A stretch of 64,000 nucleotides of DNA from Candidatus Omnitrophota bacterium (lineage in GTDB: Bacteria; Omnitrophota; Gorgyraeia; Zapsychrales; Fredricksoniimonadaceae), in NCBI GenBank assembly GCA_903860135.1, contig CAIOPG010000017.1, positions 203,364 to 267,363 on the forward strand, in the 5' to 3' direction. The notes under the pieces were generated by a model that was not told the DNA's origin, ran no database searches, and was given only the letters and a program-made list of their open reading frames with translations. Both the position numbers and the translations under genes were made by a program. Every line of letters starts with the position of its first letter. Position 1 is the first letter of the stretch. Of this stretch, positions 21,666-41,567 are shown in pieces.

Positions 21666-22694
21666 CTAGTTTCTCTTCTTTTCAGTACTGATCACCCGAT
21701 GCAACACCTTGATCTTCTCTTCTTTCTTATAAACATCAAATAACTTTTCTTCTTTGATCTTATTTTGCGCGTCGATCGCGCTGGTGAGATCCTGCACAAC
21801 AGCAGAATCCTTAGCGACGATTCGTTCTGAAGTAAGCTTAGCGATCGCCTTATCAATAACGGCCTGCTCGGTCTTTAAATCGGCAAGCTCAGCCGTGGCC
21901 TTGAGCATGCGCGGGTCCGTGCTGGCCACATCTTTCGGTGGAGCAACTGTCACGGTCCCCATCAGCCGCCGATCGTTATCAAATCCTTGACGAGCTTGTT
22001 CGCTGATCGCCTCAAGGTCATTGGGATCACCAAATTCCAGAACCCCAGGTGCCTTGACAACCGTTCCTGCCGTTGCAGGACCTGTATCCAAATTGGCAGT
22101 AAATTCACGGATACGCGCATTGATCTTTGTTACGGCCGCAATGTCTTCTTTTTCCCGCACCCGCGCATTTGCTTCAGCCGCCTTACGCTCGCGCGCTTCA
22201 CGGGCAGGGCGTTCACGCTCTGCTTTCTCAGCAGCTTCAACACTTTCCACATGACGGAGATTCTCATCTGTAAAAGCCTTGGGCTCCATGCTGATCGCAT
22301 GACGTAATTCAGCGGCAGTTTTAGCCTCTGTCCATGCGATCACTGCTTTCGCTGACGAGATCCATCTGCGTAAAGTGGGCCCATCAGCAACCTTTTGCCG
22401 CTCTTGGCAAAGCCGTAAATATTCACGGAAATCTTTTCTAGCCCATACCGCTTGCACCTGTTCATCAAAAGCCCTGGCAATCGCATTTAACTCCGCGACC
22501 TGCTCCGGGGAAACTTCCCACTCCTTCTCACGGCGCTGCCGTGGTTCATTATAAACAGGAGACGGACTATCATCACCGCAGTTCATGCAAACACCCGTTG
22601 GATTCTGCCAATCATTCGCCTGAACAAGAACGGAAGGAAAAAACAGCAGGCCGCCAACAATCAAAGCTACACTTCCCGATAACTTTATTTTCAT
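21666..22694 (-). CDS. secreted hypothetical protein, charged coiled-coil rich (ERERPAREARERKAAE)
   Basis: Signal peptide, low-complexity E/R/K/A helical region. Confidence 0.45.
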   Translation of the reverse strand: MKIKLSGSVALIVGGLLFFPSVLVQANDWQNPTGVCMNCGDDSPSPVYNEPRQRREKEWEVSPEQVAELNAIARAFDEQVQAVWARKDFREYLRLCQERQKVADGPTLRRWISSAKAVIAWTEAKTAAELRHAISMEPKAFTDENLRHVESVEAAEKAERERPAREARERKAAEANARVREKEDIAAVTKINARIREFTANLDTGPATAGTVVKAPGVLEFGDPNDLEAISEQARQGFDNDRRLMGTVTVAPPKDVASTDPRMLKATAELADLKTEQAVIDKAIAKLTSERIVAKDSAVVQDLTSAIDAQNKIKEEKLFDVYKKEEKIKVLHRVISTEKKRN

Positions 22695-23097: not shown

Positions 23098-23867
23098 TCA
23101 AACCAGCTCAAGCCGCTGGAATCGCTCGATCAGAAGCTTGTCGAACGCTTCAGCCAATTCTTCGGGAAGGAATGACGCCGCAAGCCTTGAAGGGAACAGC
23201 TCTTTCTTACCCGCAAACTTCTCGAATCTGATCTTCTCCGGGATGCCGTTGTATTTATCCTGCTTCTCCAGGATCTGGGCAAAGTCCTCCTGGTGAACTT
23301 TCCGTCGCCCTTCCCGATCGAAACGCTTGACCACATAGGCCAGGCTCTTATCCTTCAGGTGCACCAGGCAATGCGCGGGCACATCGATCCCAATATCCTC
23401 GGCGATCGTCATGCAAAGCTCTTCGTTCTCCGGCAGATTTGCGAACGCCTGCACCTGCGGCTTAAGGATATATTGGCGACCCGCACCAGTGACTTCCAGA
23501 TGCGAATCACCTGCCCGGTCAGCCAATTTCACGGCAAGTTTGAGCTGCACGCCAGAGATCGACATCTTTCCAACCATCTCCTGAGCCTTTAAAGACACCC
23601 CGGCCAGCGTCAGGTCAATGCAAGGATCCCTGTCGATACCAAAGACTTTACGCCATAATGATCGTTCGTTCCTCATACGGCACCACTCTCTTTCACAGTA
23701 ACAGCGCAGATCGTGCTCTCACCTGTCACCAATAAGATCCCGAATTCATCGGACGGGTCAATTTTCCTTGTCGCGCACACGATGTCCCTGTACCATCCTT
23801 CTGAATTTAACCCGGTAAAGAATGGAAAAAGTATTGTTGATTCAAAAGGCGCCTCCCGCAAAGGCAA
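23098..23867 (-). pseudogene. hipA: hipA-like toxin gene remnant: frameshifted N-terminus (23673-23867 fragment) and truncated before the catalytic kinase motifs
   Basis: FFTGLNSEGWYRD...ICAVTV (HipA N-terminal region) in one frame, MSISGVQLKL...VKRFDREG in the next; total ~260 aa versus ~440 aa for HipA, no D-x-H-x-K-N loop. Confidence 0.5.
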
Positions 23868-23987
23868 AGAAAGAGAAACCGCCTTTCCGCTCTTGAGATA
23901 CGCGGGGTCATAGGTGAACCTGTACCCCGCGTCCGTTTCCTCAAGAACCCCGACAAGGCGGTCGTGATAAAAACATCAGCTTTTCTT

Positions 23988-24194
23988 TTATTGTTCCCTG
24001 CCATTACGCACGACCTCAAGATGGTGCCCCAAGAATTCAAGGACCACATTGACCTTGTCCAGACGCACCGTGTTCTTCCCCTGCTCGAGCTCTCTCACGA
24101 AACGGAGCCCGACACCGGCACGCTTCGCGAACTCGATCTGGTCGAGACCTGCTTTCTTTCGCAGAACCTGTATTATCTTCCCGATACTTTTCAT
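23988..24194 (-). CDS. hipB: HipB-like XRE-family HTH antitoxin/transcriptional regulator
   Basis: LDQIEFAKRAGVGLRFVRELEQGKNTVRLDKVNVVLEFLG HTH_XRE pattern; immediately upstream of hipA remnant. Confidence 0.6.
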   Translation of the reverse strand: MKSIGKIIQVLRKKAGLDQIEFAKRAGVGLRFVRELEQGKNTVRLDKVNVVLEFLGHHLEVVRNGREQ

Positions 24195-24419
24195 GATTAG
24201 AATATACACCCTAAAGGGTATAAAACAAGATTTAATATTGAAAGTCTGGAGAAACAATCATCCAAACACCATAAATACACCCTATCGGGTGTATTTTAGA
24301 TTTTACTTCTGAGCTGTTATCTATTCAATTCCATACGCCCAAAGGTAAAATCTTTTCCCTCCCTTCGGCCATATCAAATATCAATGATGACCGGCTCGTT
24401 AACCAATTGATAATCCTCA

Positions 24420-24989
24420 TCAAGGGCTGAACAGTTGATGAAAATCGATAGATAGGACTTCAATACTTTTAACAAGATATTGAAAAGACCCTTCAACGCT
24501 ACGGCCTTCGGTCACAACTGTGATCTGTGGTGATCCAGGGATATCATAGGGATCATCGATCCCGGTAAAATGTTTGATCTCCCCGGCCCTGGCCTTCTTG
24601 TAAAGTCCTTTAGGGTCGCGGCGCTCACACTCCGTCAACGAAGCTTCCACATAAACTTCGATAAAATTACGGCAGCTGCGCCGCACGGCCATGCGTGCGT
24701 CGTTATAGGGTGAAATGAACGAGGCCACCACGATCACCCCGTTGCGCTCGAGCAAAGAAGCGATATAACCAACACGCATGATGTGCTCATCACGGTCCTT
24801 CTTCGAGAAACCTGTCAGAGGGAATACCGCACGCACCGCATCCCCGTCAAGATGTTCGACACGAAATCCCTTGGCCTTGTAAAACGCACACAGCTTCTCG
24901 GCCAATGTGCTTTTACCGGAACCGGACAGCCCCGTTAACCACACCACAAAACCCTTGTTTTTTTCTTCTGGCATCATCAGAAACCCCAA
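24420..24989 (-). CDS. cysC: adenylyl-sulfate (APS) kinase
   Basis: GLSGSGKSTLA P-loop, LDGD motif, 189 aa; start overlaps TpsB stop. Confidence 0.8.
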   Translation of the reverse strand: MGFLMMPEEKNKGFVVWLTGLSGSGKSTLAEKLCAFYKAKGFRVEHLDGDAVRAVFPLTGFSKKDRDEHIMRVGYIASLLERNGVIVVASFISPYNDARMAVRRSCRNFIEVYVEASLTECERRDPKGLYKKARAGEIKHFTGIDDPYDIPGSPQITVVTEGRSVEGSFQYLVKSIEVLSIDFHQLFSP

Positions 24990-26677
24990 CGTACGGCAAG
25001 GTGGAACTGAGCCGCATGGTTGTCGGAAGGGTCATCGCCCAGCGGAAACCCTGTGTCAAAGGTGATATTGGAATCAGGGCTTAAATAAAACCTGAGACCG
25101 ATGCCAGCCCCGACCAAGGTTGTATCTTTTAACGACGACACCTGCTCTCGCTTACGATTAAAAACTCGCCCGGCATCAATGAACGTCGCCAATGAAAGCG
25201 CATCACGCCAGGTCTTGTCCTTCATGCCGACAACGTGCCAGGTCTCAGGGATAAAATAAACAGGGATACGCCATTCCTGCGACACACTAAAGCCGCTGTC
25301 GCCGGAGGCGTCGTTCTCGGGATAGCCCCTTACCGAATACATCCCCCCCAGGTTAAACTGCTCCAGAGAATTCAGGGCCGCATCGCTGAACTGCCCTGAA
25401 GCCTGCGAAATCAGCGCCATTCCCAGCGGCAAGCGCTGGATCCTCGCGAGATTGAGCGTCTCGTACACAAAACTTCCGCCGGAATCCATACGGCTGGCAA
25501 GGCTGTCATGGTGAGATGAAGATCCCATGAACCCTGCAGCACCTGTGTGCACATCAGCACCTGCAAAAGTGCGGCCGGTTGCATCATTAAACGTCACCCT
25601 CGGCCCGGCCACAAGCACCCGGTTACGGTCAAACGAAAACTTGTCCTTCAAAACGTCGGTCTTGGAATCCTTGATCTCAAAACGAACATCACCCTCCAGT
25701 CTCACCCTTGTATCTTCAACAAACGTGTGCGTCCATCCGGAGATAAAACTTATCAAATTGCCTGTCACATGCAGATCATACAAATTCTTTTGAAGACGGC
25801 TTTGCGCCCTACCCACATCCAAATGAAACACATCTCTCGTCTTGGGGATGGGCATTTCATAATGCATGGAACTCGCGTAAAGTGCCCCTGCCTCAGCCAT
25901 TGAAAATGTTGACTTAAGGCTATCCCCATGCCCGGTGAGATTATTATCAGTCAGGTGCAGGAGGTACCTGTCTCCACCGGTCAGCTTGGATCCGGTTAAA
26001 TTATACTCCAGCGACGCATGCAGCGGCTGCTGATCCTGAACTTTCATCAGAATATCGGTCGTACCAGGTTCATGTCCCGGCGCAAGGTAGGTCGTGGCAA
26101 AACGATCCGGCTGGGTGTTAATCTTGCGCAAGGCGTTCTCCAGATCCCCCATTTCAAAATGATCGCCACTGTTGAGTCCCAAGGCATTCCGGTACAGGCT
26201 TTTGCTAAACCAGCGCTCCCCCTCAACAGACACCTTACCGACGCGCACTTCGAGGATATGGATCGATACCACCCCGTCTACGACCTTCTGGGGTGGAATA
26301 TAAGCCCGGCTTGTTGTATACCCATGCTTATGGTAAAGAATAGTGATGCGATCAGCGAATTTCTGAAGATCGGCCAAGGACATCATCGTCCCTTCAAGTT
26401 GATGTGCCTCGGCCAGTAAATCATCGGACTTAAAAAGCCCGTTCCCCTCAATGACGATTTTCTTGACCAGAAATTGAATACCTTCCGCCACAACCTTCTT
26501 CTCTTCTTTCTTTTCTATGACAACTTTCTTCGAAGGCTGTACGGAGGCCTTATTCGCGCGCTCCAAAGGATTGGTCTGGGTGGTCAATTGACGCTGAACG
26601 ACTTCATTGACAGGTTGGGCAAAGACAAAAGCTGTCTGTACCAAGCATACACACAACAAAATTATGGATATTCGCAT
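24977..26677 (-). CDS. two-partner secretion outer-membrane transporter (TpsB; ShlB/FhaC/HecB family)
   Basis: Signal peptide, POTRA region, Omp85-type C-terminal beta-barrel ending ...LAVRWGF. Confidence 0.8.
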   Translation of the reverse strand: MRISIILLCVCLVQTAFVFAQPVNEVVQRQLTTQTNPLERANKASVQPSKKVVIEKKEEKKVVAEGIQFLVKKIVIEGNGLFKSDDLLAEAHQLEGTMMSLADLQKFADRITILYHKHGYTTSRAYIPPQKVVDGVVSIHILEVRVGKVSVEGERWFSKSLYRNALGLNSGDHFEMGDLENALRKINTQPDRFATTYLAPGHEPGTTDILMKVQDQQPLHASLEYNLTGSKLTGGDRYLLHLTDNNLTGHGDSLKSTFSMAEAGALYASSMHYEMPIPKTRDVFHLDVGRAQSRLQKNLYDLHVTGNLISFISGWTHTFVEDTRVRLEGDVRFEIKDSKTDVLKDKFSFDRNRVLVAGPRVTFNDATGRTFAGADVHTGAAGFMGSSSHHDSLASRMDSGGSFVYETLNLARIQRLPLGMALISQASGQFSDAALNSLEQFNLGGMYSVRGYPENDASGDSGFSVSQEWRIPVYFIPETWHVVGMKDKTWRDALSLATFIDAGRVFNRKREQVSSLKDTTLVGAGIGLRFYLSPDSNITFDTGFPLGDDPSDNHAAQFHLAVRWGF

Positions 26678-26726
26678 ACTGACCTTTTTAAGTTTAACCA
26701 GAATAGTACCACTTCAAACCCCAAGA

Positions 26727-29700
26727 TCAAGAGACAAGCTCAACACCATCACCCGACATAATGGCATGCCCGGCCTGCGGGAACCCGCCAACAGGCGTAC
26801 CAAAGATCGGGCCAAGGGTATTGGGCACATGCGGCAAATCCCTAAAGTTAAAGCCAGTGATCCCAGGGATCATCTCATGCACGATCGCTTCATGCGTCGG
26901 TTCATCCACAAGTCCAGACGACGGTGCCGGTGCTGGTGTTGGTGTTGGTGTTGGTGTTGGTGTTTCGGAAGGGAATAGCCAGTTGAGGTTATTACCGGAA
27001 TCCATACAGTCCGTCGTGCAATCCAGCTCCAGTCCGGATGCCTTTGAATCCTTGACGTCAAGGTAAGACAATGTTGACGTGCCCGTGAGCTTCAATAAAG
27101 CGCGTGTTCCAGGGACAGAAGCGCGGATATTCAGAGGATCTGTGGCACTGCCACCCTCCAGATCAAGTTCACCACCCACGACCTGTTCACTGCCCGATTC
27201 AAAGGTCAGCGTATGCCCGCCGTCCGCAAACTTCTTGAGATTATGGAACGTCGTAGTGCCATGGATCGCCTGGTCCGTACCATTGAAATTCACGGTCGAT
27301 GTCCCGGCATGGAATACCCCGTCATTCGTCCAATCCCCTCCAACCTCAACATCACCCGCCGTGGCTGTCACAGCCGCACCGAAGCCTATATCAACATTAC
27401 CGGCAAGGCTCCATGTCCCGGCATCATCGGCAGCATCATTGATCGACCCGGCTGTCACCGTCAATCCGCCCACGGTTAACGCATGATTACCGAAACTCAC
27501 ATCACCGGTGCCCTGCTTCGTGAAAAGACCTGTGATACTGATATCCGCATTGAAATTAACCACACTGTCTGTGTCGTTCACAATAGTGAAATCCGTCAGC
27601 CTGCTCACGCTACCTGAGCCGACCACACCTAGACCCACCGTGCCTGTCCCCGTATTCAGCGTTAACAACTCGGCCACCCCGCCCAGCGTGCCATCAATAG
27701 TGCCGGTCACCGTAATATTCTGGTCATTCGTGGCGACCACCGGAGCATGCCCTTCGGCTATCGTCAGTGCCCCGTCAATATTCAGATTGCCACCACCGGC
27801 AGACAGATCGATCGCATTATTGTCAAACGTCACATTATTAAAATGCTGGCCATTGGTTGCAATCGCCTGGGTGCCTGTACCATTAAACACAACACGACCG
27901 GTCCCGGAGTTGAACAGCCCTGCCGTCAACGCAAGATCAAGGCCGACGGCAAGCGTGTAACTGTTTTGATTGAACGTCCCGTCAGCCTGGATATAACTGC
28001 CACTAATAGAAAGATCCGCATTCTGGCTAACAACACCCGTATACCCGGGATCGATGTTCAACCGGGCAATGGTACTCGCAAAACCCGCATCGATCGTGGC
28101 ATTGTTGATGCTGGTGCCGTTGAAAAGAACATTGGTTGATGACGTCGGTACACCATGGTTCCAGTTGCCGGCCACAGACCATGCATCACTCAAAGCTCCA
28201 GTCCAGATATCTGTCAGGTCATTCACCCCGAATGTCGGATAGGAAACCCCTGATACCCAGATAAAATCAAAATCCCAGGGATTTGTCCCGTTATAGACCG
28301 TATGTGTCGAATCAAAGAAATCGCTCGCAGCCGTCGCTTTCTCCCATTGCCCATCACTGGTGGCTGAACCGCTGGCTCCAACACCATTATCAAGGGCGTT
28401 GTACCACCAGTTGTTTGTCAACGTATCGGTGCTAACAACATACCCCACAAGCCCACCAACTTCCGTTTCACCGCTGACACTACCCGTGGCGTAGCTGCTA
28501 TCAATGCTGGATAAATCAGAATTAAAACCAACAAGGCCACCGACATAACTGGCGCCACTCACATCGCCCGTGGCGTAGCTGTTATGAATGCTCGATGAAT
28601 CAGAACTATAACCCACCAACCCCCCAACATCCGAAATATTATTATCCCCGACATTCACATTGCCCGTGGCGTAACTGTTATCCATACTTGAATTATAAAA
28701 AGAACCTACCAGTCCGCCAACGTCCCAAATGCCTTCTCCCGTTACATCCACGTTGGCGTAGGCATTGCGAATAATTGTGTTATGACCCGAACCCACCAGC
28801 GCGCCGACGCTATTACCGCCTATGACCGACCCACTGATAATCTCGATATCATGGATATTAGTGCCCGTGGCATAGCCAAAGAACCCGATGTTGTCGTTAT
28901 TCGGCATGTTAATGTTCAGATGGCTGACAGTTTTGGAATTGCCATCCAGTTCATTGACACCAAGATACGGGATATACAACCCGGAAGAACCGGCCAGATC
29001 CAGGTTCGCAGTAAGTTTGAACTTATCGGTGCTGTGATCGAACTCTGCAAAACCTAAGAAATCCTTGAGGTCAGCAACGCTGGTGATTTCATAGAAACCG
29101 GCAACCAAATTCAAATAATCAGTGATCGCCAGCGATTTGCCATGGCCCAACCAGTCCTGAAACTGCCCGTCATAAATCCCGCCGACCGTTATGGCAGGAA
29201 CACCGTTGATAAGCACACTGTCAATGTTATAGAATGAATTGCTAATAGTGCCGCCACCACCGTTATAACCAACCATCCCCCCAACCGCCAGAATGGTATC
29301 CCCGCTGTTCACATTGCCCGTGGCATAACTATTTTCAATAATGCCATAATAATTATTTTTTCCAACAAGCCCTCCAACATTTTCACTGCCGAGCCCAACG
29401 GTCACACTGCCAGTGGCATAACTGTTAGAAATGACGCCACTATACACATTGCAACCAACCAATCCCCCGACATCCCAACTGTCATCCCCGCCGATCACAT
29501 CACCCGTGGCGTAGCTGTTATCAATACTGGATGAATCAGAATTATAACCAACAAGACCGCCGACCCACCTCACACCGGTCAGATTAACCGTGGTATGGCT
29601 GTTGGAAATGGTGCTGCTATAGTCATTACGACCAACCAAACCACCACTCATATCGCCAGCCACATCACCCGTGGTGTAGCTGTTATCAATGCTCGATGAA

Positions 29701-31361
29701 TACGCATTATACCCAACAAGGCCGCCGACATCCGAGGCTCCTGTGACATTGTTATTCACAAGTCCGACATTTTTAATAGTCGCGCCGGATACATAACCAA
29801 ACAACCCGACACAATTCGTTGAAGGACGATTGATGAAAAGACCCGAAATGGTATAGTTATCGCCATTAAAAGAGCCAGTAAAGGGCGTAACATCATCGCC
29901 GATAGGCGCGAATCCAGCACCTGCATTCCAGGTTGAGGTATCAGCAGCATTAATATTGTTCGCCTGTTTATAAACATTGCCTAGGCCTTGGGTCGGGATA
30001 TACTGCAAACCACCCACGACGTTAGACACAGAATAGATCATGTACGGATCGCCTGCCGTGCCCGATCCTTGTGACCTTGAAAAGCGCGCATGGTAATTGG
30101 TCTTGAGTGTTGCCACACTGAAAGCAGCTCCTGTGGAGGTGAACGTCCTGTCGTCCGTGGTCGATGCGTTGAGCGTCAGGAGATCGACACCCGTGATCGA
30201 ACCGTTAAGCGTGTCATTCACGCCCGTATACATCTCAAGGTCAAACCCGTTGCCAGTCAACGCAAACCCGTTCATGATGACCGAACCGGCCGTCCCGCTG
30301 CCGCCCGAATCCGCCTGGAACGTCGCGCTGCCGATCAAATTGACAACCCCTGTAAAATGAATATTGCCTGCATCCGATTGAATCCCGCCGACATCCCCGG
30401 AAATATTGATAGCCCCGTCCAAGTTGCTGTAATACCCATGCCCCACATCAAGGACGCCTGAAGAATAAAACGTATAGCCGCTCTCGTTCAGCTGGCTTGC
30501 CTGAATCGTGCCGCTGTTCTCAATACCGCCATCGGCAACAAGCTCCACCAAGCCTCCGTGTTCACGCACGCTGTTGGCCTCGATGATCCCTTCATTATTC
30601 ACAACACTTGCCAACGTTGTCTTCAACAGCGCCGCCGTTATCTGCACCTTGCCACCCGCCGCGCTGATATCACCCTTGTTCGTGATCTGCGCATCCGCCA
30701 GCTGCTGCGACACCCCCTTATTCACAACAAGGTTCACCAGCCCGCTTGGGTCAAAGCTCACCGCGATCTTCTCGCCCGACCCCATGGCCACACTGCCCAG
30801 ATACGCCGTGATCGTCCCGTTATTGATGATCTTGTCCGCCATAAAGATCAAATACCCGCCATCCTTGACCTTGATATTCGCATCATTGAGGACCTGTGCC
30901 GTAGCTGAGCCGCTGACCTTCTCGAAGGCCAGTTGACCGGTCAGGAACTGTTCGTTCTGGATATTGAGCGTTGAAGCAATAAGAGAAGCGACATTGATAC
31001 TGGCCGAGGCACCAATATAGACGCCATTGGTGTTGATCAACACCACTTTACCCGTAGCCAGAAAAGTGCCCAGCCAATTGGTTGTCGAGTCGGTAATGTC
31101 CCTGAAAAGAACATCGCTGGTACCAAGCACGCGCACCGTCTCACCAGCCCCGATACTGGTATCGCCGTGCAGGATCGCGCGGTCTTTAAGTGTGATGGTG
31201 GTGATGTCGCCGGATTTTAAGACGGAAGCATCCCCATCGGTCACGTCGACATTGAAAGCAAAGGCGGGGTGACATACAGACAAGAAAATGAAACAAACAG
31301 CCGTATACGCGGCCAGGAATTGCTTGATAGGAAAAGTAAATTCTTTTCTCGTTATGCACAT
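26727..31361 (-). CDS. large TpsA-type exoprotein: N-terminal TPS (haemagglutination activity) domain, ~20 GLUG-like repeats (GGLVGxN), beta-helical repeats, (TP)n linker and ~65-aa C-terminal domain
   Basis: Extended signal peptide, LINTNGVYIG TPS motif, recurring VGGLVGYN..SSI.NSYATG units, C-terminal TPTPTPTPTPAPAP. Confidence 0.75.
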   Translation of the reverse strand: MCITRKEFTFPIKQFLAAYTAVCFIFLSVCHPAFAFNVDVTDGDASVLKSGDITTITLKDRAILHGDTSIGAGETVRVLGTSDVLFRDITDSTTNWLGTFLATGKVVLINTNGVYIGASASINVASLIASTLNIQNEQFLTGQLAFEKVSGSATAQVLNDANIKVKDGGYLIFMADKIINNGTITAYLGSVAMGSGEKIAVSFDPSGLVNLVVNKGVSQQLADAQITNKGDISAAGGKVQITAALLKTTLASVVNNEGIIEANSVREHGGLVELVADGGIENSGTIQASQLNESGYTFYSSGVLDVGHGYYSNLDGAINISGDVGGIQSDAGNIHFTGVVNLIGSATFQADSGGSGTAGSVIMNGFALTGNGFDLEMYTGVNDTLNGSITGVDLLTLNASTTDDRTFTSTGAAFSVATLKTNYHARFSRSQGSGTAGDPYMIYSVSNVVGGLQYIPTQGLGNVYKQANNINAADTSTWNAGAGFAPIGDDVTPFTGSFNGDNYTISGLFINRPSTNCVGLFGYVSGATIKNVGLVNNNVTGASDVGGLVGYNAYSSSIDNSYTTGDVAGDMSGGLVGRNDYSSTISNSHTTVNLTGVRWVGGLVGYNSDSSSIDNSYATGDVIGGDDSWDVGGLVGCNVYSGVISNSYATGSVTVGLGSENVGGLVGKNNYYGIIENSYATGNVNSGDTILAVGGMVGYNGGGGTISNSFYNIDSVLINGVPAITVGGIYDGQFQDWLGHGKSLAITDYLNLVAGFYEITSVADLKDFLGFAEFDHSTDKFKLTANLDLAGSSGLYIPYLGVNELDGNSKTVSHLNINMPNNDNIGFFGYATGTNIHDIEIISGSVIGGNSVGALVGSGHNTIIRNAYANVDVTGEGIWDVGGLVGSFYNSSMDNSYATGNVNVGDNNISDVGGLVGYSSDSSSIHNSYATGDVSGASYVGGLVGFNSDLSSIDSSYATGSVSGETEVGGLVGYVVSTDTLTNNWWYNALDNGVGASGSATSDGQWEKATAASDFFDSTHTVYNGTNPWDFDFIWVSGVSYPTFGVNDLTDIWTGALSDAWSVAGNWNHGVPTSSTNVLFNGTSINNATIDAGFASTIARLNIDPGYTGVVSQNADLSISGSYIQADGTFNQNSYTLAVGLDLALTAGLFNSGTGRVVFNGTGTQAIATNGQHFNNVTFDNNAIDLSAGGGNLNIDGALTIAEGHAPVVATNDQNITVTGTIDGTLGGVAELLTLNTGTGTVGLGVVGSGSVSRLTDFTIVNDTDSVVNFNADISITGLFTKQGTGDVSFGNHALTVGGLTVTAGSINDAADDAGTWSLAGNVDIGFGAAVTATAGDVEVGGDWTNDGVFHAGTSTVNFNGTDQAIHGTTTFHNLKKFADGGHTLTFESGSEQVVGGELDLEGGSATDPLNIRASVPGTRALLKLTGTSTLSYLDVKDSKASGLELDCTTDCMDSGNNLNWLFPSETPTPTPTPTPAPAPSSGLVDEPTHEAIVHEMIPGITGFNFRDLPHVPNTLGPIFGTPVGGFPQAGHAIMSGDGVELVS
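26922..26963. repeat. hexanucleotide tandem repeat (ggtgYY x7) encoding the (TP/AP)n linker of TpsA
   Basis: ggtgcc ggtgct ggtgtt x5 read directly. Confidence 0.8.
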
Positions 31362-31449
31362 ATTATATATATAACATATTAATTTAAAACGATGTTGTCT
31401 AAACTGGAAATAATGGAAAAGACCACCGGAACCGAGACAGGAAAGGATT

Positions 31450-32568
31450 TTATTTCTTTAAGAATGATTCAATAAAACACGGGGCATAACGCACCATGCG
31501 GTAGATCCACTGGCGACGGCCAAAACTCTCCGGATGCATGGAGTTGGCAACATCCTGACGTTGTGGGTGATAATATTCCCAAACAATCTCTCCCGCTGAT
31601 GTGATCTCAAAAGATCGCCCGCGCTCACTCTCGGTTACCAGCGTATTCCCGTTGGGGAAACGCTGAACATAACCTTGCGATAAGGTAAAGAAACCATCCG
31701 CCCGATATTCCCACGTGATCCGCATCGCCCGCGGGTCAAGTTCAATGACCCGTGACCAGCCGCGATAACGGCCATTCTCAAACACAAGGATCCGCCCGCT
31801 GGGCAGCATTGTGGGAGCATGCTGGCCTTGTAGTCCGTCGGGAATATCATCGGCAATGCATTTCCAAACAACCTTCTTCGTCACCTGATCCATGATAAAG
31901 ATCATACTGCCATGACGAAAACTGACCAGCCAGTTCCCTTCCCGAAAACGGGGATCGTGCGTGCCCAAAGCGTTCCTAGGCAGCAATTGAAAAGAGTTCA
32001 ATCGATAATAATCATAATTACCACCCCAGGGTGTTGCTCCCTTACGTTTGGCGGCTTCAGGCCAAAGAAATATCCTAGGACGATCCAACTCCAGCGGATA
32101 ATGCAATGACTGGAGATATTTCAAGTTCTCCCATGTCGACCAGCGCGCTATCTGCCGCCCCTGCAGATCAAACTCCACCACAGCACAAAAATCAACCTTC
32201 CGGCCTTTGTACACATGCATTTCTTTGGTCAGCGTGATGATCGTGCCGCGGGACGTATACACAATGTCGTGATGGATAGGGAAATCCTGTTCCCAGATCA
32301 CCTGGTCGTCAAACGTATACATCCCCCATTTGCACGACTCATAATAGGCTTGGGCTACGTATCGGCCATCGGGCAATAGAAGCCCCAGATAACGCGATCT
32401 CCACTGCTTCCAGCTATTGCCCTGAAGGTCGATCAGCTGGCCATCAAAAAGATTATAACCCGGTGAAATTTGTTGCGGCATACGCGCATGGGCACCCGAA
32501 AGCGTCGCGTCAAAACGCGGCTCTTCGAGTTCACGGAGCTTCAACTTTACAAGATCGGAAAATGCCAT
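31450..32568 (-). CDS. arylsulfotransferase (ASST)-like beta-propeller protein, no signal peptide (tentative family assignment)
   Basis: NYDYYRLNS, NGNTLVTES, repeated W/hydrophobic blades; paralog of next gene. Confidence 0.4.
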   Translation of the reverse strand: MAFSDLVKLKLRELEEPRFDATLSGAHARMPQQISPGYNLFDGQLIDLQGNSWKQWRSRYLGLLLPDGRYVAQAYYESCKWGMYTFDDQVIWEQDFPIHHDIVYTSRGTIITLTKEMHVYKGRKVDFCAVVEFDLQGRQIARWSTWENLKYLQSLHYPLELDRPRIFLWPEAAKRKGATPWGGNYDYYRLNSFQLLPRNALGTHDPRFREGNWLVSFRHGSMIFIMDQVTKKVVWKCIADDIPDGLQGQHAPTMLPSGRILVFENGRYRGWSRVIELDPRAMRITWEYRADGFFTLSQGYVQRFPNGNTLVTESERGRSFEITSAGEIVWEYYHPQRQDVANSMHPESFGRRQWIYRMVRYAPCFIESFLKK

Positions 32569-32569
32569 T

Positions 32570-34015
32570 TTAAGGTTTCAGCAAAGGATCGATCATGTTT
32601 GGGGGGTAACGGGTCATGCGGTATATCTCCTGCCGCTGGCCCCATTTCTTTTTATCTGTAGAATTCTTTTCATTCTGCTTGTCAGGATTGTAGAACTCCC
32701 AAACGATCCTGTTGTCCGGCGTTAATTCGAACACACGCCCTTCTTCTGCTTCCGTAACGAGCATATTTTGGTTGGAAAGTTTTTGAACAAACCCCTGGGA
32801 CAAAGAATAGAAATGCTCGCTGCGGTATTCCCAGACGACTTTAAGTGTCATGGGGTTCAATTCAAGCAAACGCGACCATTTACGATAACGGCCGTTATCA
32901 AGTAGAAGGATGTTCCCATTGGGGATCATCGATGGCGCATGCGGACCTTCCAGCCGATCCTTGACCTGATCATCAATGGCGCGCCAAAGGATTTTATGGC
33001 TATCCTTATCAAGAATAAATACCATGCTTCCATGCCGCAAACTGATAAGCCAGTTGCCCGGTGTAAAAGCCGGGTGACGGCCCTGTAACGGCGTGGGCGG
33101 CACAATAGACAAAGAATTAAGATGATAGTAATCATAATGACCGCCAAAAACGCTCTTAACCATTCGATGGTTCTGCGGCATGGGGATATTGGCGGGCATA
33201 TCGAGTTCAAGTTTCTTGTGGTACTTCTGGAATTCCTGAAGATGATCCCAGAAAGAATACCGCTGCAATTCATTGCCGTCTTTGTCATACTCGAGGATCA
33301 CATCGAACTCAACATCACGGCCATTATATCTGTGCACTTCCTTCGTGAATGTCATCACCGTGCCCTGCGGGGTCAATAACAACTCGTGATGGATGGGGAA
33401 ATGCTTTTCCCAGACGACTTTACCATCCCACGTATAACGGCCCCAGAGAGGCGCCTCAAAATATTTCTCGGCATAATAATCGCCATTCTTATCAATAACA
33501 CCCAAATAAATGCTCGGCCATTGCTTGACCACGCGCCCTTGGTTATCCATGAGTTTACCTTCATAAAGGTTATAACCAGGACTGACACGGGAGGTATCCA
33601 CGCTGTGCACCCCCGAGCGTGCGCGATCGAATTTTACAATAGACGGCATATGCAGAGCCTTGAAAATAAAGAAGCCGAACATACCCGAGACAATAAGAAT
33701 GCCCGCGAGAAAAAACACCCGGTGTCGGCACCATAAAAAACTAACACCTTTAATGATAATGCTGCGGAAGAAATGAATAACAACAGCAGAAGCAAAAGCA
33801 AAGAAAGCAATTATCCCGGTCAGTATCGAACTGATAAGATAACCGCCGCTGCCGGGGTCAATGTAAGCACCGGCATCTGCGGGGTACAATGAAAAGCAGA
33901 CCACCCATAGGATAAGATTTAAAATCATACTGCCTTGATCCCCGTGTTTACTATAAAAACGTCTGAACGATAAGCATAAACACTCAAAAACCAAAGGGTT
34001 GTACCCATCGCTCAA
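32570..34015 (-). CDS. membrane-anchored paralog of ASST-like beta-propeller protein (N-terminal 3 TM helices; start probably at MILNLILW ~33928)
   Basis: ~40% identity by eye to 31450-32568 product (SPGYNLYEG, HYDYYHLNS, NQNMLVTEAE); N-terminal hydrophobic helices. Confidence 0.4.
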   Translation of the reverse strand: MSDGYNPLVFECLCLSFRRFYSKHGDQGSMILNLILWVVCFSLYPADAGAYIDPGSGGYLISSILTGIIAFFAFASAVVIHFFRSIIIKGVSFLWCRHRVFFLAGILIVSGMFGFFIFKALHMPSIVKFDRARSGVHSVDTSRVSPGYNLYEGKLMDNQGRVVKQWPSIYLGVIDKNGDYYAEKYFEAPLWGRYTWDGKVVWEKHFPIHHELLLTPQGTVMTFTKEVHRYNGRDVEFDVILEYDKDGNELQRYSFWDHLQEFQKYHKKLELDMPANIPMPQNHRMVKSVFGGHYDYYHLNSLSIVPPTPLQGRHPAFTPGNWLISLRHGSMVFILDKDSHKILWRAIDDQVKDRLEGPHAPSMIPNGNILLLDNGRYRKWSRLLELNPMTLKVVWEYRSEHFYSLSQGFVQKLSNQNMLVTEAEEGRVFELTPDNRIVWEFYNPDKQNEKNSTDKKKWGQRQEIYRMTRYPPNMIDPLLKP

Positions 34016-35637
34016 CCCTTGGCTTTGGCAAATTCCTCCCGCAGGGTTTTGACGCGCGCATCGGACAGGTAATCATCAAAGGTCGTGCCTGTGCGGTCGA
34101 TCATGCCGGCCGGGGTGATCTCGATGATACGATTGGCCACGGTCTGCACGAGTTCATGGTCATGCGAGGAAAACAGGATCGTGCCCTTATAACGCTTGAG
34201 GCCTTCATTGAGCGCGGTGATCGATTCAAGGTCCAGGTGATTGGTCGGCTCATCGAGGATAACAACGTTGGGCTTCATCAGCATCATGCGCGACAGCATG
34301 CAGCGCACCTTCTCCCCGCCGGAAAGGACTTTGGATGACTTTTGCGACTCTTCGCCCGTAAAAAGCATCTTGCCCAGAAAACCGCGTATAAAGATCTCGG
34401 ACTTCTCCTCGGAATACTGCCGCAGCCAGTCGACAATACTCAGGTCGGATTTAAAATACTCGGCATTGTCCTTGGGAAAATACGCGCGCCGCGTGGAAAA
34501 GCCCCATTTGAAAGCCCCCTGGTCTACCGGAAGTTCACTCATAAGCACCTGGAAAAGGGTTGTCCTGATCAGGTCATTGGTGCCGACGAAAGCCACCTTG
34601 TCGCCTTTCTGGATCGTGAAGGATATCTTGCGGAACATCGCCTGACCATCCACAGACCTGGAAAGATCGATAACATCAAGAAGATCATTGCCCGCTTCGC
34701 GTTCCTGCTCAAAATGAACATACGGATATTTACGCGACGACGGCTCAATGTCTTCAATGACAAGTTTCTCGAGGATCTTCTTGCGGCTGGTTGCCTGACG
34801 CGACTTGGACAGATTGGAACTGAACCGCGCGATGAAATCCTGCAATTCCTTGCGGCGATCCTCGACCTTCTTGTTCTCCTCACTGCGCTGTTTGGCGGCG
34901 AGGCGGCTTGATTCCGACCAGAACGTATAATTGCCGGAATATATCTTTACCTTCCCGAAATCAATATCGGCGATATGCGTGCACACATTATCGAGAAAAT
35001 GGCGGTCATGGGAAACCACAATCGCCGTATTCTCAAACCGGGACAGAAAGTCCTCCAGCCACATGCAGGTCTCGACATCAAGATGGTTCGTCGGCTCGTC
35101 GAGCAGCAGGATGTCGGGGTTACCGAAAAGTGCTTGCGCCAACAGCACGCGCACCTTGTCGCCGCCTTCGAGCTGTTTCATCTGCCGGGTGTGCGCGGAG
35201 GTGGGGATACCCAGTTCTGCCAGAAGTTTACCGGCATCGGATTCTGCGTTCCAGCCGTCCATTTCCACAAACTCGGCTTCAAGCTCGGAAACGCGCATGC
35301 CATCTGCATCGGAGAAATCCGCCTTGGCATAAATGGCGTCTTTTTCGAGCATGACATCAAAGAGCCGTTTGTGCCCCATAATGACCGTCGTTAAGACCGG
35401 ATACTCGTCAAAGGCAAAATGATCCTGCCGCAATACCGACATGCGTTTGCCCGAATCAATGGCCACCGTGCCTTCGGTCGAGTCGATCTCGCCGGAAAGG
35501 ATCTTGAGGAACGTTGATTTCCCGGACCCGTTGGCGCCGATAAGGCCGTAACAGTTGCCCTGGGAAAAAACGATATTAACACCGGAAAAAAGTTTCCGCT
35601 GGCCATACTGAAGCGTGACATTATTAACTGTGATCAT
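34012..35637 (-). CDS. ABC-F family ATPase (two tandem ABC domains, no TMD; YbiT/Uup-like)
   Basis: Two Walker A (GANGSGKST / GTNDLIRTT-region), two LSGGE signatures, 541 aa. Confidence 0.8.
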   Translation of the reverse strand: MITVNNVTLQYGQRKLFSGVNIVFSQGNCYGLIGANGSGKSTFLKILSGEIDSTEGTVAIDSGKRMSVLRQDHFAFDEYPVLTTVIMGHKRLFDVMLEKDAIYAKADFSDADGMRVSELEAEFVEMDGWNAESDAGKLLAELGIPTSAHTRQMKQLEGGDKVRVLLAQALFGNPDILLLDEPTNHLDVETCMWLEDFLSRFENTAIVVSHDRHFLDNVCTHIADIDFGKVKIYSGNYTFWSESSRLAAKQRSEENKKVEDRRKELQDFIARFSSNLSKSRQATSRKKILEKLVIEDIEPSSRKYPYVHFEQEREAGNDLLDVIDLSRSVDGQAMFRKISFTIQKGDKVAFVGTNDLIRTTLFQVLMSELPVDQGAFKWGFSTRRAYFPKDNAEYFKSDLSIVDWLRQYSEEKSEIFIRGFLGKMLFTGEESQKSSKVLSGGEKVRCMLSRMMLMKPNVVILDEPTNHLDLESITALNEGLKRYKGTILFSSHDHELVQTVANRIIEITPAGMIDRTGTTFDDYLSDARVKTLREEFAKAKG

Positions 35638-37496: not shown

Positions 37497-38477
37497 TTAC
37501 TTGATGCCCAATAGGGCCGCTACATCAGCCAGTGGGCGAATACTCATAATAACAGGCGTAAAGCCGGCGACATTGCCCAGGCTACCTAATTGATAAGAAT
37601 AAGCCATATCAACCTTTTTTCCGATACTCTGTATCTTCAAATTCCGGGCATTAAGATCAATACCACCCACGCGCTCTGCCTGATCTATTTGCTTGATCTG
37701 GTCAAGATTATGCCGAGCATTGTTCTCCGCCAACAGCAAGGTCAGATAATCTTCCAAAAGACGAAGATTTTTCACCTTATGCCGCTCAGCCAAGTCGCGA
37801 TAGAACATGACACTGTAATATTCCTTCAATAATTCCTTACGGTTAGGCGAATCAATAACCGCCGGAAATCCCCCTGTATCTAAGTATTCATTGAAAGCCT
37901 TCTTCACGAGTGGCCGCTCACGGCTGTACAAAATGCGCTCCACATCGACCGCTATGCCCCGGGCTGAAAGAAATTCCTTGAAACTTAACGGAAATACATT
38001 AACGCTCAACGTCCTCCCTCTCAGTTCTGTGGCGATCTCACGGCTCAAAAGCTTCGACGATGAACCCGTGATGATCAACTTGATATTGGGATGTTGATCC
38101 GTGATCCGTCGCGCCCATTTCGACCAGTTAGCCGCATTTTGGATCTCATCCACAAAGAGATAGACCCTTTGGGTCATATCAACATCCAGCATTTCCCGGC
38201 AAATATCCCACAACAAGGACAATTCATCTCCTCGAACAGGCGAAAGCCGTTCATCCTCAAGGTTAATATAAATAACATTACCAACGGGCACCTTCTGCTT
38301 CGCCCACCGCGCCATCTGGTAACATAAATATGTTTTCCCGGTCCTGCGGGCACCGATGATCGAAAGGATCTCTTTGCCATCCAGAAATCGATTATCAAAA
38401 TCGCGGGCATACCCTTGCGGAATATCGAATTCCTTCCACTCCTGAAGGATGCGTTTAATTTTATCTCGTGTGATCAT
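37497..38477 (-). CDS. AAA-family ATPase with DUF4143 (AAA_14/DUF4143 family)
   Basis: Walker A GARRTGKT, Walker B LFVDEIQ, C-terminal DUF4143-like region. Confidence 0.65.
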   Translation of the reverse strand: MITRDKIKRILQEWKEFDIPQGYARDFDNRFLDGKEILSIIGARRTGKTYLCYQMARWAKQKVPVGNVIYINLEDERLSPVRGDELSLLWDICREMLDVDMTQRVYLFVDEIQNAANWSKWARRITDQHPNIKLIITGSSSKLLSREIATELRGRTLSVNVFPLSFKEFLSARGIAVDVERILYSRERPLVKKAFNEYLDTGGFPAVIDSPNRKELLKEYYSVMFYRDLAERHKVKNLRLLEDYLTLLLAENNARHNLDQIKQIDQAERVGGIDLNARNLKIQSIGKKVDMAYSYQLGSLGNVAGFTPVIMSIRPLADVAALLGIK

Positions 38478-41512: not shown

Positions 41513-41567
41513 CTGAGCGACGAGGATATCCAACACGGCCTGTTCAACTTCGAACGCGGTGATTAAT

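What the first reader, a model, noticed from the sequence alone, without database searches (positions are those of the whole stretch)
24420..35637. Two-partner secretion operon coupled to PAPS synthesis (cysC) and two sulfotransferase-like beta-propeller paralogs
All these genes are on the minus strand and run ABC-F ATPase, ASST-like (membrane-anchored), ASST-like (soluble), TpsA, TpsB, cysC. The cysC start overlaps the TpsB stop, and the two ASST-like genes are separated by one nucleotide. An APS kinase on its own (no cysDN here) inside a secretion operon suggests local supply of the sulfate donor PAPS. Together with two arylsulfotransferase-like proteins, this points to sulfation of the exported TpsA adhesin or toxin, or of a co-secreted small molecule. 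The precedent is NodH with NodPQ in Nod-factor sulfation. I do not know of a described sulfated TPS system.
Basis: partly seen in the sequence, partly recalled or inferred. Interest (0 to 1): 0.7.

Follow-up and report, generated by a model that had tools for sequence, protein, structure and literature searches.

The report
Sulfation genes wired to secreted adhesin
An uncultured, probably Omnitrophota, bacterium carries a conserved gene set: a kinase that makes the activated-sulfate donor PAPS, two sulfotransferase-like enzymes predicted to sit on opposite sides of the cell membrane, and a large secreted surface protein with its export pore; the same core also occurs in tiny DPANN archaea, which suggests an undescribed way of sulfating cell-surface adhesins.

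Summary
On the minus strand lie ASST-like (membrane-anchored, 32570-33928), ASST-like (soluble, 31450-32568), a TpsA with Glug repeats (26727-31361), TpsB (24977-26677) and APS kinase cysC (24420-24977). The junctions are 1 nt apart or overlap by 1 nt.

Two details are wrong. The anchored paralog starts at 33928, not 34015. The ABC-F gene (and YgiQ) is not a conserved partner.

The module recurs in related genomes:
- The anchored/soluble pair is adjacent in most loci from Omnitrophota and DPANN archaea.
- A Glug-repeat protein lies nearby in 12 of 28 genome loci, against 0 of 80 control loci.
- cysC abuts the pair in five separate loci; one archaeal operon also carries ATP sulfurylase.

Best reading: a dedicated sulfation module acting on the exported Glug/TpsA protein or its glycan. 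The cytoplasmic paralog would draw on PAPS and the external paralog would act outside the membrane. Known ASSTs do not use PAPS, so this needs new chemistry or a missing carrier. No biochemistry exists. I class it as a new variant of a known kind, interest about 0.7.

The parts
32570..33928 (-). ASSTm: membrane-anchored ASST-fold sulfotransferase-like protein (452 aa). Layout: signal-peptide-like helix (AxA|Y), YIDPGSGG motif, TM helix, positively charged loop, TM helix, then a beta-propeller predicted to face the periplasm.
   Evidence: Pfam PF14269 E 2.6e-17 and PF05935 E 3.6e-16. The start at 33928 is supported by gene callers and homolog N-termini. The loop between helices 2 and 3 carries 4-7 K/R in most of the 35 homologs, which by the positive-inside rule places the propeller outside. 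The position matching E. coli His356 is His in 31 of 35 TM-type sequences.
31450..32568 (-). ASSTs: soluble ASST-fold sulfotransferase-like paralog (372 aa) with no signal peptide, predicted cytoplasmic.
26727..31361 (-). TpsA-type exoprotein (1544 aa): Sec signal peptide, TPS secretion domain, two blocks of Glug repeats, a beta-helix-like C-terminal region and a PT-rich linker. Candidate sulfation substrate.
   Evidence: PF05860 37.8 bits (cutoff 33.5) and PF07581 Glug x7, E 5e-41. Homologous TpsA or giant Glug proteins lie next to ASST pairs in L003, L005, L007, L012 and L121. Glug-module proteins lie next to ASST pairs in 8 archaeal loci.
24977..26677 (-). TpsB outer-membrane transporter (566 aa) for the TpsA.
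   Evidence: PF08479 POTRA_2 E 1.4e-20 and PF03865 ShlB E 1.1e-24. Orthologs lie directly upstream of cysC in L003 and L121.
24420..24977 (-). cysC, APS kinase (185 aa), which makes PAPS from APS. Its start overlaps the TpsB stop by 1 nt.
   Evidence: PF01583 E 2e-53 across the full profile. TIGR00455 194 bits, cutoff 138.7. TGATG junction. Context of the closest homologs that could be examined: 4 beside an ASST pair and 1 beside a Sulfotransfer_4 gene in an EPS cluster.

Best explanation
The five genes ASSTm-ASSTs-TpsA-TpsB-cysC form a dedicated, non-assimilatory sulfation-plus-export module.

**Proposed mechanism**
1. CysC converts APS to PAPS in the cytoplasm. The APS must come from an ATP sulfurylase encoded elsewhere in the genome.
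2. The soluble ASST-fold paralog, predicted cytoplasmic, takes the sulfuryl group onto its conserved catalytic histidine (H250). The source is PAPS directly or a PAPS-derived donor. It then loads an acceptor that can leave the cell.
3. The anchored paralog has its propeller predicted on the outer face of the inner membrane. It performs the final ping-pong sulfuryl transfer outside the cytoplasm.
4. The most likely final acceptor is the Glug-repeat TpsA, or a glycan on it, as it passes through the periplasm on its way to TpsB.

In DPANN archaea the same pair would act on Glug-repeat surface proteins without a TpsB.

**Shown here**
- Gene identities.
- ASST fold and conserved catalytic residues.
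- The conserved and co-evolving paralog pair.
- Repeated genomic linkage to APS kinase, to sulfate-activation genes and to Glug/TpsA proteins.

**Inferred, not shown**
- Opposite membrane sidedness of the two paralogs.
- PAPS as the ultimate donor.
- The identity of the acceptor.
- How the sulfuryl group crosses the membrane. One possibility is that sulfotyrosines loaded on the exported protein itself serve as the aryl-sulfate donor outside.
For: **1. The paralogs are ASST-type enzymes.**
- Pfam hits are above cutoff.
- The equivalents of E. coli ASST His252, Asn358, Arg374 and catalytic His436 are invariant or nearly so in 122 sequences.

**2. The pair works as a unit.**
- TM-type and soluble-type genes are adjacent in most loci.
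- In an NJ tree they form two clades with mirrored substructure across Omnitrophota, DPANN archaea and a Bdellovibrionales MAG.

**3. The pair is linked to sulfate activation in separate contexts and gene orders.**
- Window: pair-TpsA-TpsB-cysC.
- L003: pair-TpsB-cysC.
- L121: TpsA-TpsB-cysC-pair.
- L123: pair-cysC.
- Archaeon UBA583, L027: pair-cysC-ATP sulfurylase as a tight operon.
- L005: a TauE/TSUP transporter lies between the two paralogs. Homologous TauE genes flank cysC in 5 control loci, 4 of them with sat as well.
- No Pfam hit to a PAPS reductase among the called or scanned genes of the loci that carry cysC beside the pair.
- A close cysC homolog (69% identity) sits beside a classical Sulfotransfer_4 in an EPS cluster. 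This cysC group therefore appears to serve sulfation.

**4. The pair is linked to the proposed substrate.**
- Glug-module proteins lie within 10 kb in 12 of 28 genome-scan loci, against 0 of 80 control loci (Fisher p 1e-8).
- This includes archaea confirmed by archaeal ribosomal genes on the same contig.

**5. Topology.**
- The TM-type has one more TM helix than the anchored s-type variants.
- Charge distribution puts the two propellers on opposite sides of the membrane.
Against: - All characterised ASSTs are PAPS-independent and use aryl sulfates as donors (PMC13426309). No PAPS-dependent sulfotransferase and no carrier-forming enzyme is present in the window. One step of the relay therefore lacks a known catalyst.
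- The hhalign match to E. coli ASST has low probability (25%, E 8e-4), although its register is chemically consistent.
- About a third of ASST-pair loci with adequate flanks have no Glug protein (L011, L028, L031, L119). Some sit next to other large proteins or glycan genes (L006, L120, L119, L123).
- cysC lies next to the pair in only 5 of about 31 distinct loci.
- Topology rests on hydropathy and the positive-inside rule only.
- No transcript, protein or mass-spectrometry data exist.
- The control set for Glug adjacency comes from other taxa.
Confidence: 0.5

Rival explanations
1. The ASST pair plus cysC is a real sulfation module, but its acceptor is not the TpsA. It could be an envelope glycan, a lipid, an osmoregulated glucan or a small secreted molecule. 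The TPS genes would then be neighbours only because surface-related genes cluster together.
For: - Cpz4, the closest structural relative, sulfates a sugar hydroxyl (PMC13426309).
- L123 has MdoG and a GT2 glycosyltransferase upstream of the pair.
- L119 places the pair in a glycosyltransferase / radical-SAM / Sulfotransfer_1 cluster.
- L124 couples a close cysC homolog to EPS synthesis.
- Several pairs have no Glug protein nearby.
Against: - Glug proteins are the most frequent neighbour of the pair in both bacteria and archaea: 12 of 28 loci against 0 of 80 controls.
- cysC is translationally coupled to TpsB in the window and in L003.
- In L029 three Glug genes interleave with the two ASST genes.
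Confidence: 0.27
2. The pair are ordinary PAPS-independent aryl-sulfate sulfotransferases that shuffle sulfate between environmental or host phenolics. cysC would sit nearby for unrelated sulfur assimilation.
For: This is the only biochemically documented ASST activity, and the natural substrates of most ASSTs are unknown (PMC13426309). No ATP sulfurylase lies in the window.
Against: - cysC adjacency recurs in five separate loci with different gene orders, including an archaeal pair-cysC-sat operon.
- No PAPS reductase was seen near any of them.
- One paralog lacks a signal peptide and so cannot reach external phenolics.
- In 80 generic cysC loci, none has an ASST.
Confidence: 0.1
3. The ASST-like propellers are non-catalytic. 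They would act as chaperones, receptors or assembly factors for giant Glug/TpsA proteins.
For: Beta-propellers often serve as scaffolds (many non-enzymatic propellers appear). The genes sit beside large exported proteins of at least two unrelated families.
Against: Every position matching an E. coli ASST catalytic or sulfuryl-binding residue is invariant or nearly so across 122 sequences from two domains. This reading also does not explain the linkage to cysC, sat and TauE.
Confidence: 0.06
4. The gene order in the window is a chance juxtaposition inside a variable island rich in toxin-antitoxin genes, with no functional link.
For: The cluster is flanked by HipA/HTH, AAA_14/DUF4143 and YhcG genes.
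Against: The same gene set recurs in L003, L121, L123 and L027 with different flanks.
Confidence: 0.02

Closest known systems
Cpz8/Cpz4 two-step sulfation in caprazamycin biosynthesis (Streptomyces). PAPS passes through the PAPS-dependent Cpz8 to a sulfated triketide pyrone, and the ASST-type Cpz4 transfers the sulfate to the product.
   Different: - No Sulfotransfer_1-type enzyme and no type III PKS is present here.
- Both steps would be carried out by ASST-fold paralogs.
- The two paralogs are predicted on opposite sides of the membrane.
- The context is protein secretion in Omnitrophota and DPANN, not an antibiotic cluster.
- Sequence identity to Cpz4 is only 18-22%.
E. coli CFT073 periplasmic arylsulfate sulfotransferase (AssT, PDB 3ELQ) with DsbL/DsbI
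   Different: - The window proteins lack the N-terminal beta-sandwich domain.
- No dsbL/dsbI genes are present.
- A second, cytoplasmic paralog carries Arg at the His356 position.
- The genes are linked to cysC and TPS.
- E. coli ASST is PAPS-independent with an unknown natural substrate (PMC13426309).
RaxST/RaxX with RaxPQ in Xanthomonas: PAPS-dependent tyrosine sulfation of a secreted peptide (my own knowledge, plus PMC4892823 for RaxST).
   Same: A bacterial system in which PAPS synthesis supports sulfation of an exported polypeptide.
   Different: RaxST is a classical PAPS-binding sulfotransferase fold. Its substrate is a small RiPP-like peptide exported by a type I system, not a TPS or Glug protein.
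   Same: Dedicated sulfate-activation genes clustered with a sulfotransferase for a secreted product (my own knowledge).
   Different: NodH is a PAPS-dependent sulfotransferase acting on a lipo-chitooligosaccharide. NodPQ includes ATP sulfurylase. There is no ASST-fold enzyme and no TPS.
Classical two-partner secretion systems (FHA/FhaC, ShlA/ShlB)
   Same: A TpsA with an N-terminal TPS domain next to an Omp85-type TpsB with POTRA_2 and ShlB domains.
   Different: - The passenger is built from Glug modules, which expand to proteins of more than 3,300 aa in relatives.
- The TpsB stop is translationally coupled to an APS kinase.
- ShlB-type activation involves lipid. No TPS system with sulfation genes turned up in my literature searches.

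Membership tests
Arylsulfate sulfotransferase (ASST; PF05935/PF14269; E. coli ASST, Cpz4) | Significant match to the family profiles | tested here: met
   Both paralogs score above the gathering cutoffs for PF14269 (68.7 and 63.6 bits, cutoff 27) and PF05935 (36.3 and 59.6 bits, cutoff 24.2). There is no NCBIfam model for them.
Arylsulfate sulfotransferase (ASST; PF05935/PF14269; E. coli ASST, Cpz4) | Six-bladed beta-propeller fold closest to solved ASSTs | tested here: met
Arylsulfate sulfotransferase (ASST; PF05935/PF14269; E. coli ASST, Cpz4) | Catalytic histidine (E. coli His436) and sulfuryl-binding residues (His252, His356, Asn358, Arg374, Thr501) | tested here: met
   hhalign register: H100, R189 (His in the TM-type), N191, R218, H250, S297/Q298. 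In 122 homologs H100 and H250 are invariant; N191, R218 and S297 are nearly invariant. The His356 position is Arg in 83 of 86 soluble and His in 31 of 35 anchored paralogs. Caveat: hhalign probability is only 25%.
Arylsulfate sulfotransferase (ASST; PF05935/PF14269; E. coli ASST, Cpz4) | PAPS-independent ping-pong transfer from aryl sulfates through a sulfo-His intermediate | not testable with these tools
   Needs an enzyme assay. The genomic link to cysC and sat hints that donor use may differ.
Arylsulfate sulfotransferase (ASST; PF05935/PF14269; E. coli ASST, Cpz4) | E. coli ASST-type N-terminal beta-sandwich domain and Dsb partner genes | tested here: not met
   The alignment covers only E. 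coli ASST residues 233-543. The proteins are 372 and 452 aa. No dsbL/dsbI-like gene is in the window. This feature is specific to the enterobacterial subgroup, not to the Pfam family.
Two-partner secretion (TpsA/TpsB) | Omp85-type TpsB with POTRA_2 and ShlB barrel | tested here: met
   PF08479 E 1.4e-20 and PF03865 E 1.1e-24.
Two-partner secretion (TpsA/TpsB) | TpsA with a Sec signal peptide and N-terminal TPS domain, encoded next to TpsB | tested here: met
   PF05860 37.8 bits, cutoff 33.5. TIGR01901 is below cutoff at 24.7 against 29.1. The N-terminus has a hydrophobic signal ending AFA|F. The gap to tpsB is 49 nt.
Two-partner secretion (TpsA/TpsB) | TpsB-dependent secretion of TpsA | not testable with these tools
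   Experimental.
APS kinase (CysC) | Full-length APS_kinase domain with P-loop | tested here: met
   PF01583 positions 1-151 of 152, E 2e-53. TIGR00455 is above cutoff. The GLSGSGKS, LDGD and FISP motifs are visible in the sequence.
APS kinase (CysC) | Accompanying ATP sulfurylase (Sat or CysDN) to supply APS | tested here: not met
   None in the 64-kb window. Sat is adjacent in archaeal locus L027 and in about 27 of the 80 generic cysC loci.
Cpz8/Cpz4-type two-step sulfation | PAPS-dependent sulfotransferase (Sulfotransfer_1 type) that charges a phenolic carrier, plus a carrier-forming enzyme | tested here: not met
   No Sulfotransfer_* or PKS domain is in the window. A Sulfotransfer_1/3 gene lies near an ASST pair only in L119.
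TPST/RaxST-type protein tyrosine sulfation | PAPS-binding sulfotransferase fold acting on Tyr of a secreted polypeptide | tested here: not met
   No such domain is present. The sulfotransferase candidates here have a propeller fold. Whether Tyr is the acceptor was not tested.

The most novel reading that the evidence does not exclude
A previously unrecognised sulfation system shared by ultra-small episymbiotic or predatory prokaryotes of both domains (Omnitrophota, DPANN archaea).
- A cytoplasmic ASST-fold enzyme uses PAPS directly. That would be the first PAPS-dependent member of a family defined as PAPS-independent.
- A co-evolving, outward-facing paralog completes a trans-membrane sulfuryl relay.
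- The relay sulfates Glug-repeat adhesins, including giant ones, possibly using sulfotyrosines on the exported protein as the carrier.
- This would give these cells polyanionic, glycosaminoglycan-like surface proteins for attaching to hosts.
Probability: 0.25. Interest if true: 0.85.

Novelty: new variant of a known kind. Interest (0 to 1): 0.7.

Why it matters
- **Natural role of ASSTs.** The natural substrates and physiological role of bacterial ASSTs are largely unknown (PMC13426309). This module offers a concrete, testable setting with a defined donor pathway, two partner enzymes and a candidate protein acceptor.
- **Protein sulfation in prokaryotes.** It is almost undocumented outside RaxST, as far as I know. 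Sulfated adhesins in Omnitrophota and DPANN would add a new kind of surface chemistry to organisms thought to live attached to other cells. The giant surface proteins of these organisms are otherwise described as poorly understood (PMC10066038).
- **New enzymology.** An ASST-fold enzyme that accepts PAPS, or a sulfuryl relay across a membrane, would be new and potentially useful for biocatalytic sulfation.
- **Cross-domain transfer.** The pair appears to have moved between bacteria and archaea as a unit, together with its likely substrates.

Tried and rejected
- **phmmer of the anchored paralog against PDB sequences:** no hit even at E 10. I needed the profile search, fold searches and the E. 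coli CFT073 assT gene fetched by coordinates to map catalytic residues.
- **cysC-centred metagenome scan**: the back-translated patterns caught generic cysC genes at about 50% identity, none with ASST, TpsB or Glug neighbours. It did not find close relatives, but it served as a control set and showed the usual TauE-cysC-sat arrangement.
- **Matching contig lengths** between the cysC and ASST homolog tables. This suggested P0133 with P0023 (2661 bp) and P0136 with P0032 (13437 bp) lie on the same contigs.
- **ABC-F and YgiQ as module members:** rejected because they are not conserved neighbours. The ABC-F is a YbiT-like translation-factor type.
- **The two ORFs downstream (20624-21655 and 21666-22694) as paralogs or module parts:** no similarity to each other, no Pfam hits, and not conserved in L003.
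- **Promoter and terminator scan**: counts are close to the shuffled expectation, so it does not define the operon. A weak -35/-10 match lies in the AT-rich gap before tpsA.
- **Rfam and tRNA scans of the window:** nothing found.
- **Literature searches** linking Omnitrophota, DPANN, Glug or TPS to (aryl)sulfotransferases: nothing relevant.
- **The conserved Tyr of the Glug motif (NSYATG) as evidence for Tyr sulfation:** rejected. From memory, that Tyr belongs to the generic Glug consensus, which I did not check here.

Full report
**1. What is in the window**

Between 24420 and 35637 all long ORFs lie on the minus strand. In transcription order, Pfam assigns them as follows.
- ABC-F ATPase, 34012-35637.
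- ASST-like protein with N-terminal hydrophobic helices, 32570-33928/34015 (PF14269 and PF05935).
- A second, shorter ASST-like protein, 31450-32568.
- A 1544-aa protein with a TPS secretion domain (37.8 bits, cutoff 33.5) and seven Glug motifs, 26727-31361.
- An Omp85-type TpsB with POTRA_2 and ShlB domains, 24977-26677.
- An APS kinase, 24420-24977/24989 (PF01583, E 2e-53; TIGR00455 above its cutoff).

- TpsB stop and cysC start overlap as TGATG.
- The two ASST genes are joined as TAA-A-ATG.

Two details need correction.
- Gene callers and the N-termini of homologs put the start of the anchored paralog at 33928 (452 aa). That leaves an 83-nt gap after ABC-F rather than an overlap.
- cysC most likely starts at the ATG at 24977.

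No ATP sulfurylase, CysDN or PAPS reductase is encoded anywhere in the 64-kb window.

The window is part of a 399-kb ENA metagenome scaffold. Its nearest relatives are MAGs labelled Candidatus Omnitrophota.

**2. Are the paralogs really sulfotransferase-like?**

Yes, as far as computation can show.
- An AlphaFold2 model of the soluble paralog is confident (pLDDT 89, pTM 0.88).
- I fetched the E. coli CFT073 assT gene and aligned it to a family profile.
- The hhalign probability is low (25%, E 8e-4). Even so, the register places every published active-site residue of E. coli ASST (PMC13426309) on a conserved family column:

| E. coli ASST | Window soluble paralog |
|---|---|
| His252 | H100 |
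| His356 | R189 |
| Asn358 | N191 |
| Arg374 | R218 |
| His436 (catalytic) | H250 |
| Thr501 | S297/Q298 |

- In an alignment of 122 family members, H100 and H250 are invariant and N191, R218 and S297 nearly so.
- The only systematic difference between the two classes is at the His356 position. It is Arg in 83 of 86 soluble paralogs and His in 31 of 35 anchored paralogs.

**3. The two paralogs form a conserved, co-evolving pair, probably on opposite sides of the membrane**

A genome scan with the family profile returned 28 loci. They come from Omnitrophota MAGs and, unexpectedly, from DPANN archaea (Woesearchaeota, Nanoarchaeota and others). A few Bdellovibrionales and Acidobacteriota loci also appeared.

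The archaeal assignments are credible. One contig carries archaeal ribosomal protein genes, and one locus lies on a complete Woesearchaeota chromosome.

In most loci an anchored-type gene and a soluble-type gene are adjacent. A neighbour-joining tree splits the family into an anchored clade and a soluble clade with mirrored internal structure. A Bdellovibrionales pair nests among archaeal pairs in both clades. The duplication is therefore old, and the pair moves between lineages as a unit.

The topology inference runs as follows.
- Anchored paralogs begin with a signal-peptide-like helix ending AxA|Y. A conserved YIDPGSGG motif follows, then a TM helix, a loop with 4-7 Lys/Arg, a second TM helix and the propeller.
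- By the positive-inside rule the propeller lies outside the cytoplasmic membrane.
- Soluble paralogs have no hydrophobic N-terminus.
- A subgroup of soluble-type sequences (P0031, P0034, P0045, P0074) carries the same signal peptide, YIDPG motif and one TM helix. A basic stretch and the propeller follow directly.
- With one helix fewer, that propeller would stay inside.

This is an inference from sequence, not a measurement.

**4. Link to sulfate activation**

That also fails. cysC lies directly beside the pair in five separate loci with different gene orders and flanks.

| Locus | Arrangement |
|---|---|
| Window | pair-TpsA-TpsB-cysC |
| L003 | pair-TpsB-cysC, then ExbB-ExbD-TPR-VWA and a giant Glug TpsA |
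| L121 | giant TpsA-TpsB-cysC-pair |
| L123 | pair-cysC |
| L027 (archaeon UBA583) | anchored-soluble-APS kinase-ATP sulfurylase, tight four-gene operon |

- No Pfam hit to a PAPS reductase appears among the called or scanned genes of these loci.
- In L005 a TauE/TSUP transporter sits between the two paralogs. Homologous TauE genes flank cysC in five of the generic control loci, and four of those also carry sat.
- I examined the genomic context of four of the closest cysC homologs. Three are beside an ASST pair. The fourth (69% identity) is beside a classical Sulfotransfer_4 in a Wzx/Wzy exopolysaccharide cluster.
- This cysC group therefore appears to feed sulfation rather than assimilation, with the ASST pair occupying the consumer position.
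- In 80 generic cysC loci (667 kb) no ASST, TpsB or Glug gene was seen.

**5. Link to the secreted protein**

- Proteins sharing the Glug modules of the window TpsA lie within 10 kb of the ASST genes in 12 of 28 genome-scan loci, and in 0 of 80 control loci (Fisher p about 1e-8). The controls come from other taxa, so this is only a rough yardstick.
- In Omnitrophota these neighbours also share the N-terminal TPS region. The Glug modules can be repeated into proteins of more than 3,300 aa.
- TpsB is present in four distinct bacterial loci.
- In archaea, which have no outer membrane, the neighbours share only the Glug modules and no TpsB is present. In L029 three Glug genes interleave with the two ASST genes.
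- Some pairs instead neighbour another family of large exported proteins (L006, L120) or glycan and radical-SAM genes plus a Sulfotransfer_1 (L119).
- ABC-F and YgiQ are not conserved neighbours, except for a frameshifted ABC-F ortholog 2.4 kb from the L121 cluster. They look like housekeeping genes: a YbiT-type ABC-F and YgiQ.

**6. Most likely mechanism**

I propose a dedicated sulfation-and-export module.
1. CysC makes PAPS in the cytoplasm from APS supplied by a sulfurylase encoded elsewhere.
2. The cytoplasmic paralog picks up the sulfuryl group on H250, from PAPS or from a PAPS-derived donor.
3. The outward-facing paralog carries out the last transfer onto the Glug-repeat TpsA, or a glycan on it, as it crosses the periplasm to TpsB.

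The steps that are shown and those that are inferred are listed under the best explanation.

The main difficulty is biochemical. All characterised ASSTs are PAPS-independent and use aryl sulfates (PMC13426309). The window has neither a classical PAPS-dependent sulfotransferase nor a carrier-forming enzyme like those of the Cpz8/Cpz6/Cpz4 system (PMC4257720). Three resolutions are possible.
- The cytoplasmic paralog uses PAPS directly. Its Arg at the His356 position and the family's extra invariant arginines (R267, R269) would suit a phosphate-bearing donor. That is speculation.
- The loaded acceptor is the exported protein itself, whose sulfotyrosines would be legitimate aryl-sulfate donors outside the cell.
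- A component is encoded elsewhere.

**7. Rivals**

- Same module, different acceptor such as a glycan, lipid or small molecule: about 0.27. Support comes from Cpz4's preference for a sugar hydroxyl and from the L119, L123 and L124 contexts.
- Ordinary PAPS-independent ASSTs with an unrelated cysC: about 0.1. The repeated cysC and sat linkage and the cytoplasmic paralog count against it.
- Non-catalytic propellers: about 0.06. The invariant catalytic residues count against it.
- Chance adjacency: about 0.02. Recurrence in other genomes counts against it.

**8. Comparison with known systems and novelty**

- In fold and residues the paralogs belong to the ASST superfamily. They form a distinct, unnamed subfamily with no NCBIfam model. 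They lack the E. coli ASST N-terminal domain and Dsb partners.
- As a system, the nearest precedent is the Cpz8/Cpz4 two-step sulfation.
- RaxST/RaxX and NodH/NodPQ share only the general logic of dedicated PAPS synthesis for a secreted product.
- Full-text searches found no paper connecting Omnitrophota, DPANN, Glug proteins or two-partner secretion with ASST-type sulfotransferases. These included the two giant-gene preprints on Omnitrophota and the 2023 Omnitrophota survey.

I class the finding as a new variant of a known kind, with an interest of about 0.7. The comparative evidence for a functional module is strong and spans two domains of life. The chemistry and the acceptor remain untested.

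Noticed in passing
window 23098-24257 and 37497-42653: The module is bracketed by toxin-antitoxin or defence-type genes. Downstream lie an XRE-HTH gene and a truncated HipA_C gene. Upstream lie two AAA_14 ATPases (one with DUF4143), an unknown 290-aa ORF and a YhcG/DUF1016 PDDEXK nuclease. This suggests a variable genomic island.
   Followed up: partly
window 24273-24296: A perfect 10-bp-stem palindromic hairpin (AAATACACCC-GATA-GGGTGTATTT) lies about 125 nt after the cysC stop and just upstream of the HTH gene. It has no clear T-tract, so it could be a terminator or an operator site.
   Followed up: no
window 14000-18100: A low-GC patch (0.42-0.47 against about 0.52-0.55 nearby) carries a RhuM/Fic-domain gene (15531-16526) and a TPR-rich protein (16691-18055). 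It may be horizontally acquired.
   Followed up: no
window 1-64000: Every sizeable credible ORF is on the minus strand and GC skew is negative throughout. No tRNA or Rfam match was found in 64 kb.
   Followed up: partly
window 32570-33928 (N-terminus); proteins P0031, P0034, P0045, P0074, P0099, P0111: A conserved N-terminal module, 'signal peptide AxA|YIDPG(S/T)GGYL + TM helix', is shared by the anchored paralogs and by some soluble-type paralogs that have one TM helix fewer. Its function is unknown. It could mediate pairing of the two enzymes across the membrane.
   Followed up: partly
L120 2874-8558; L006 11411-14866: A second, unannotated family of large exported proteins (1177-1895 aa) sits next to ASST genes in place of a Glug protein. 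Members share the N-terminus DDF(R/H)LP.PG.MV.LS...NPFRF.FILD.
   Followed up: no
L119 1-11113: An ASST pair lies at the end of a cluster with four radical-SAM/SPASM genes, a GT28-like glycosyltransferase, an Asn-synthase homolog, DUF2334 and a classical Sulfotransfer_1/3 gene. This may be a Cpz8/Cpz4-like arrangement on a peptide or glycan product.
   Followed up: no
L124 4511-20546: A close cysC homolog (69% identity) overlaps a Sulfotransfer_4 gene inside a Wzx/Wzy/Poly_export polysaccharide cluster. This is probably a sulfated exopolysaccharide locus.
   Followed up: no
L003 13620-21116: ExbB-ExbD, a 780-aa TPR protein, a VWA protein and a 187-aa ORF lie between cysC and a giant Glug TpsA (2567 aa as called, truncated by the locus end). 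This hints at an energised accessory system for the giant protein.
   Followed up: no
L005 9255-9998; control loci L061, L064, L073, L110, L115: A TauE/TSUP transporter is inserted between the two ASST genes in L005. Homologous TauE genes lie beside cysC in five generic loci, four of which also carry sat. This fits a role for this TSUP clade as a sulfate (or sulfo-compound) permease.
   Followed up: partly
window 1-12500: A run of biosynthetic genes: MetW, MetX-like hydrolase, NadA, radical SAM, NAD-epimerase, beta-ketoacyl synthase, AIR-synthase-like, diacylglycerol-kinase-like, aminotransferase, OYE flavin oxidoreductase and UbiA prenyltransferase. It may be a lipid or prenylated-product cluster.
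   Followed up: no
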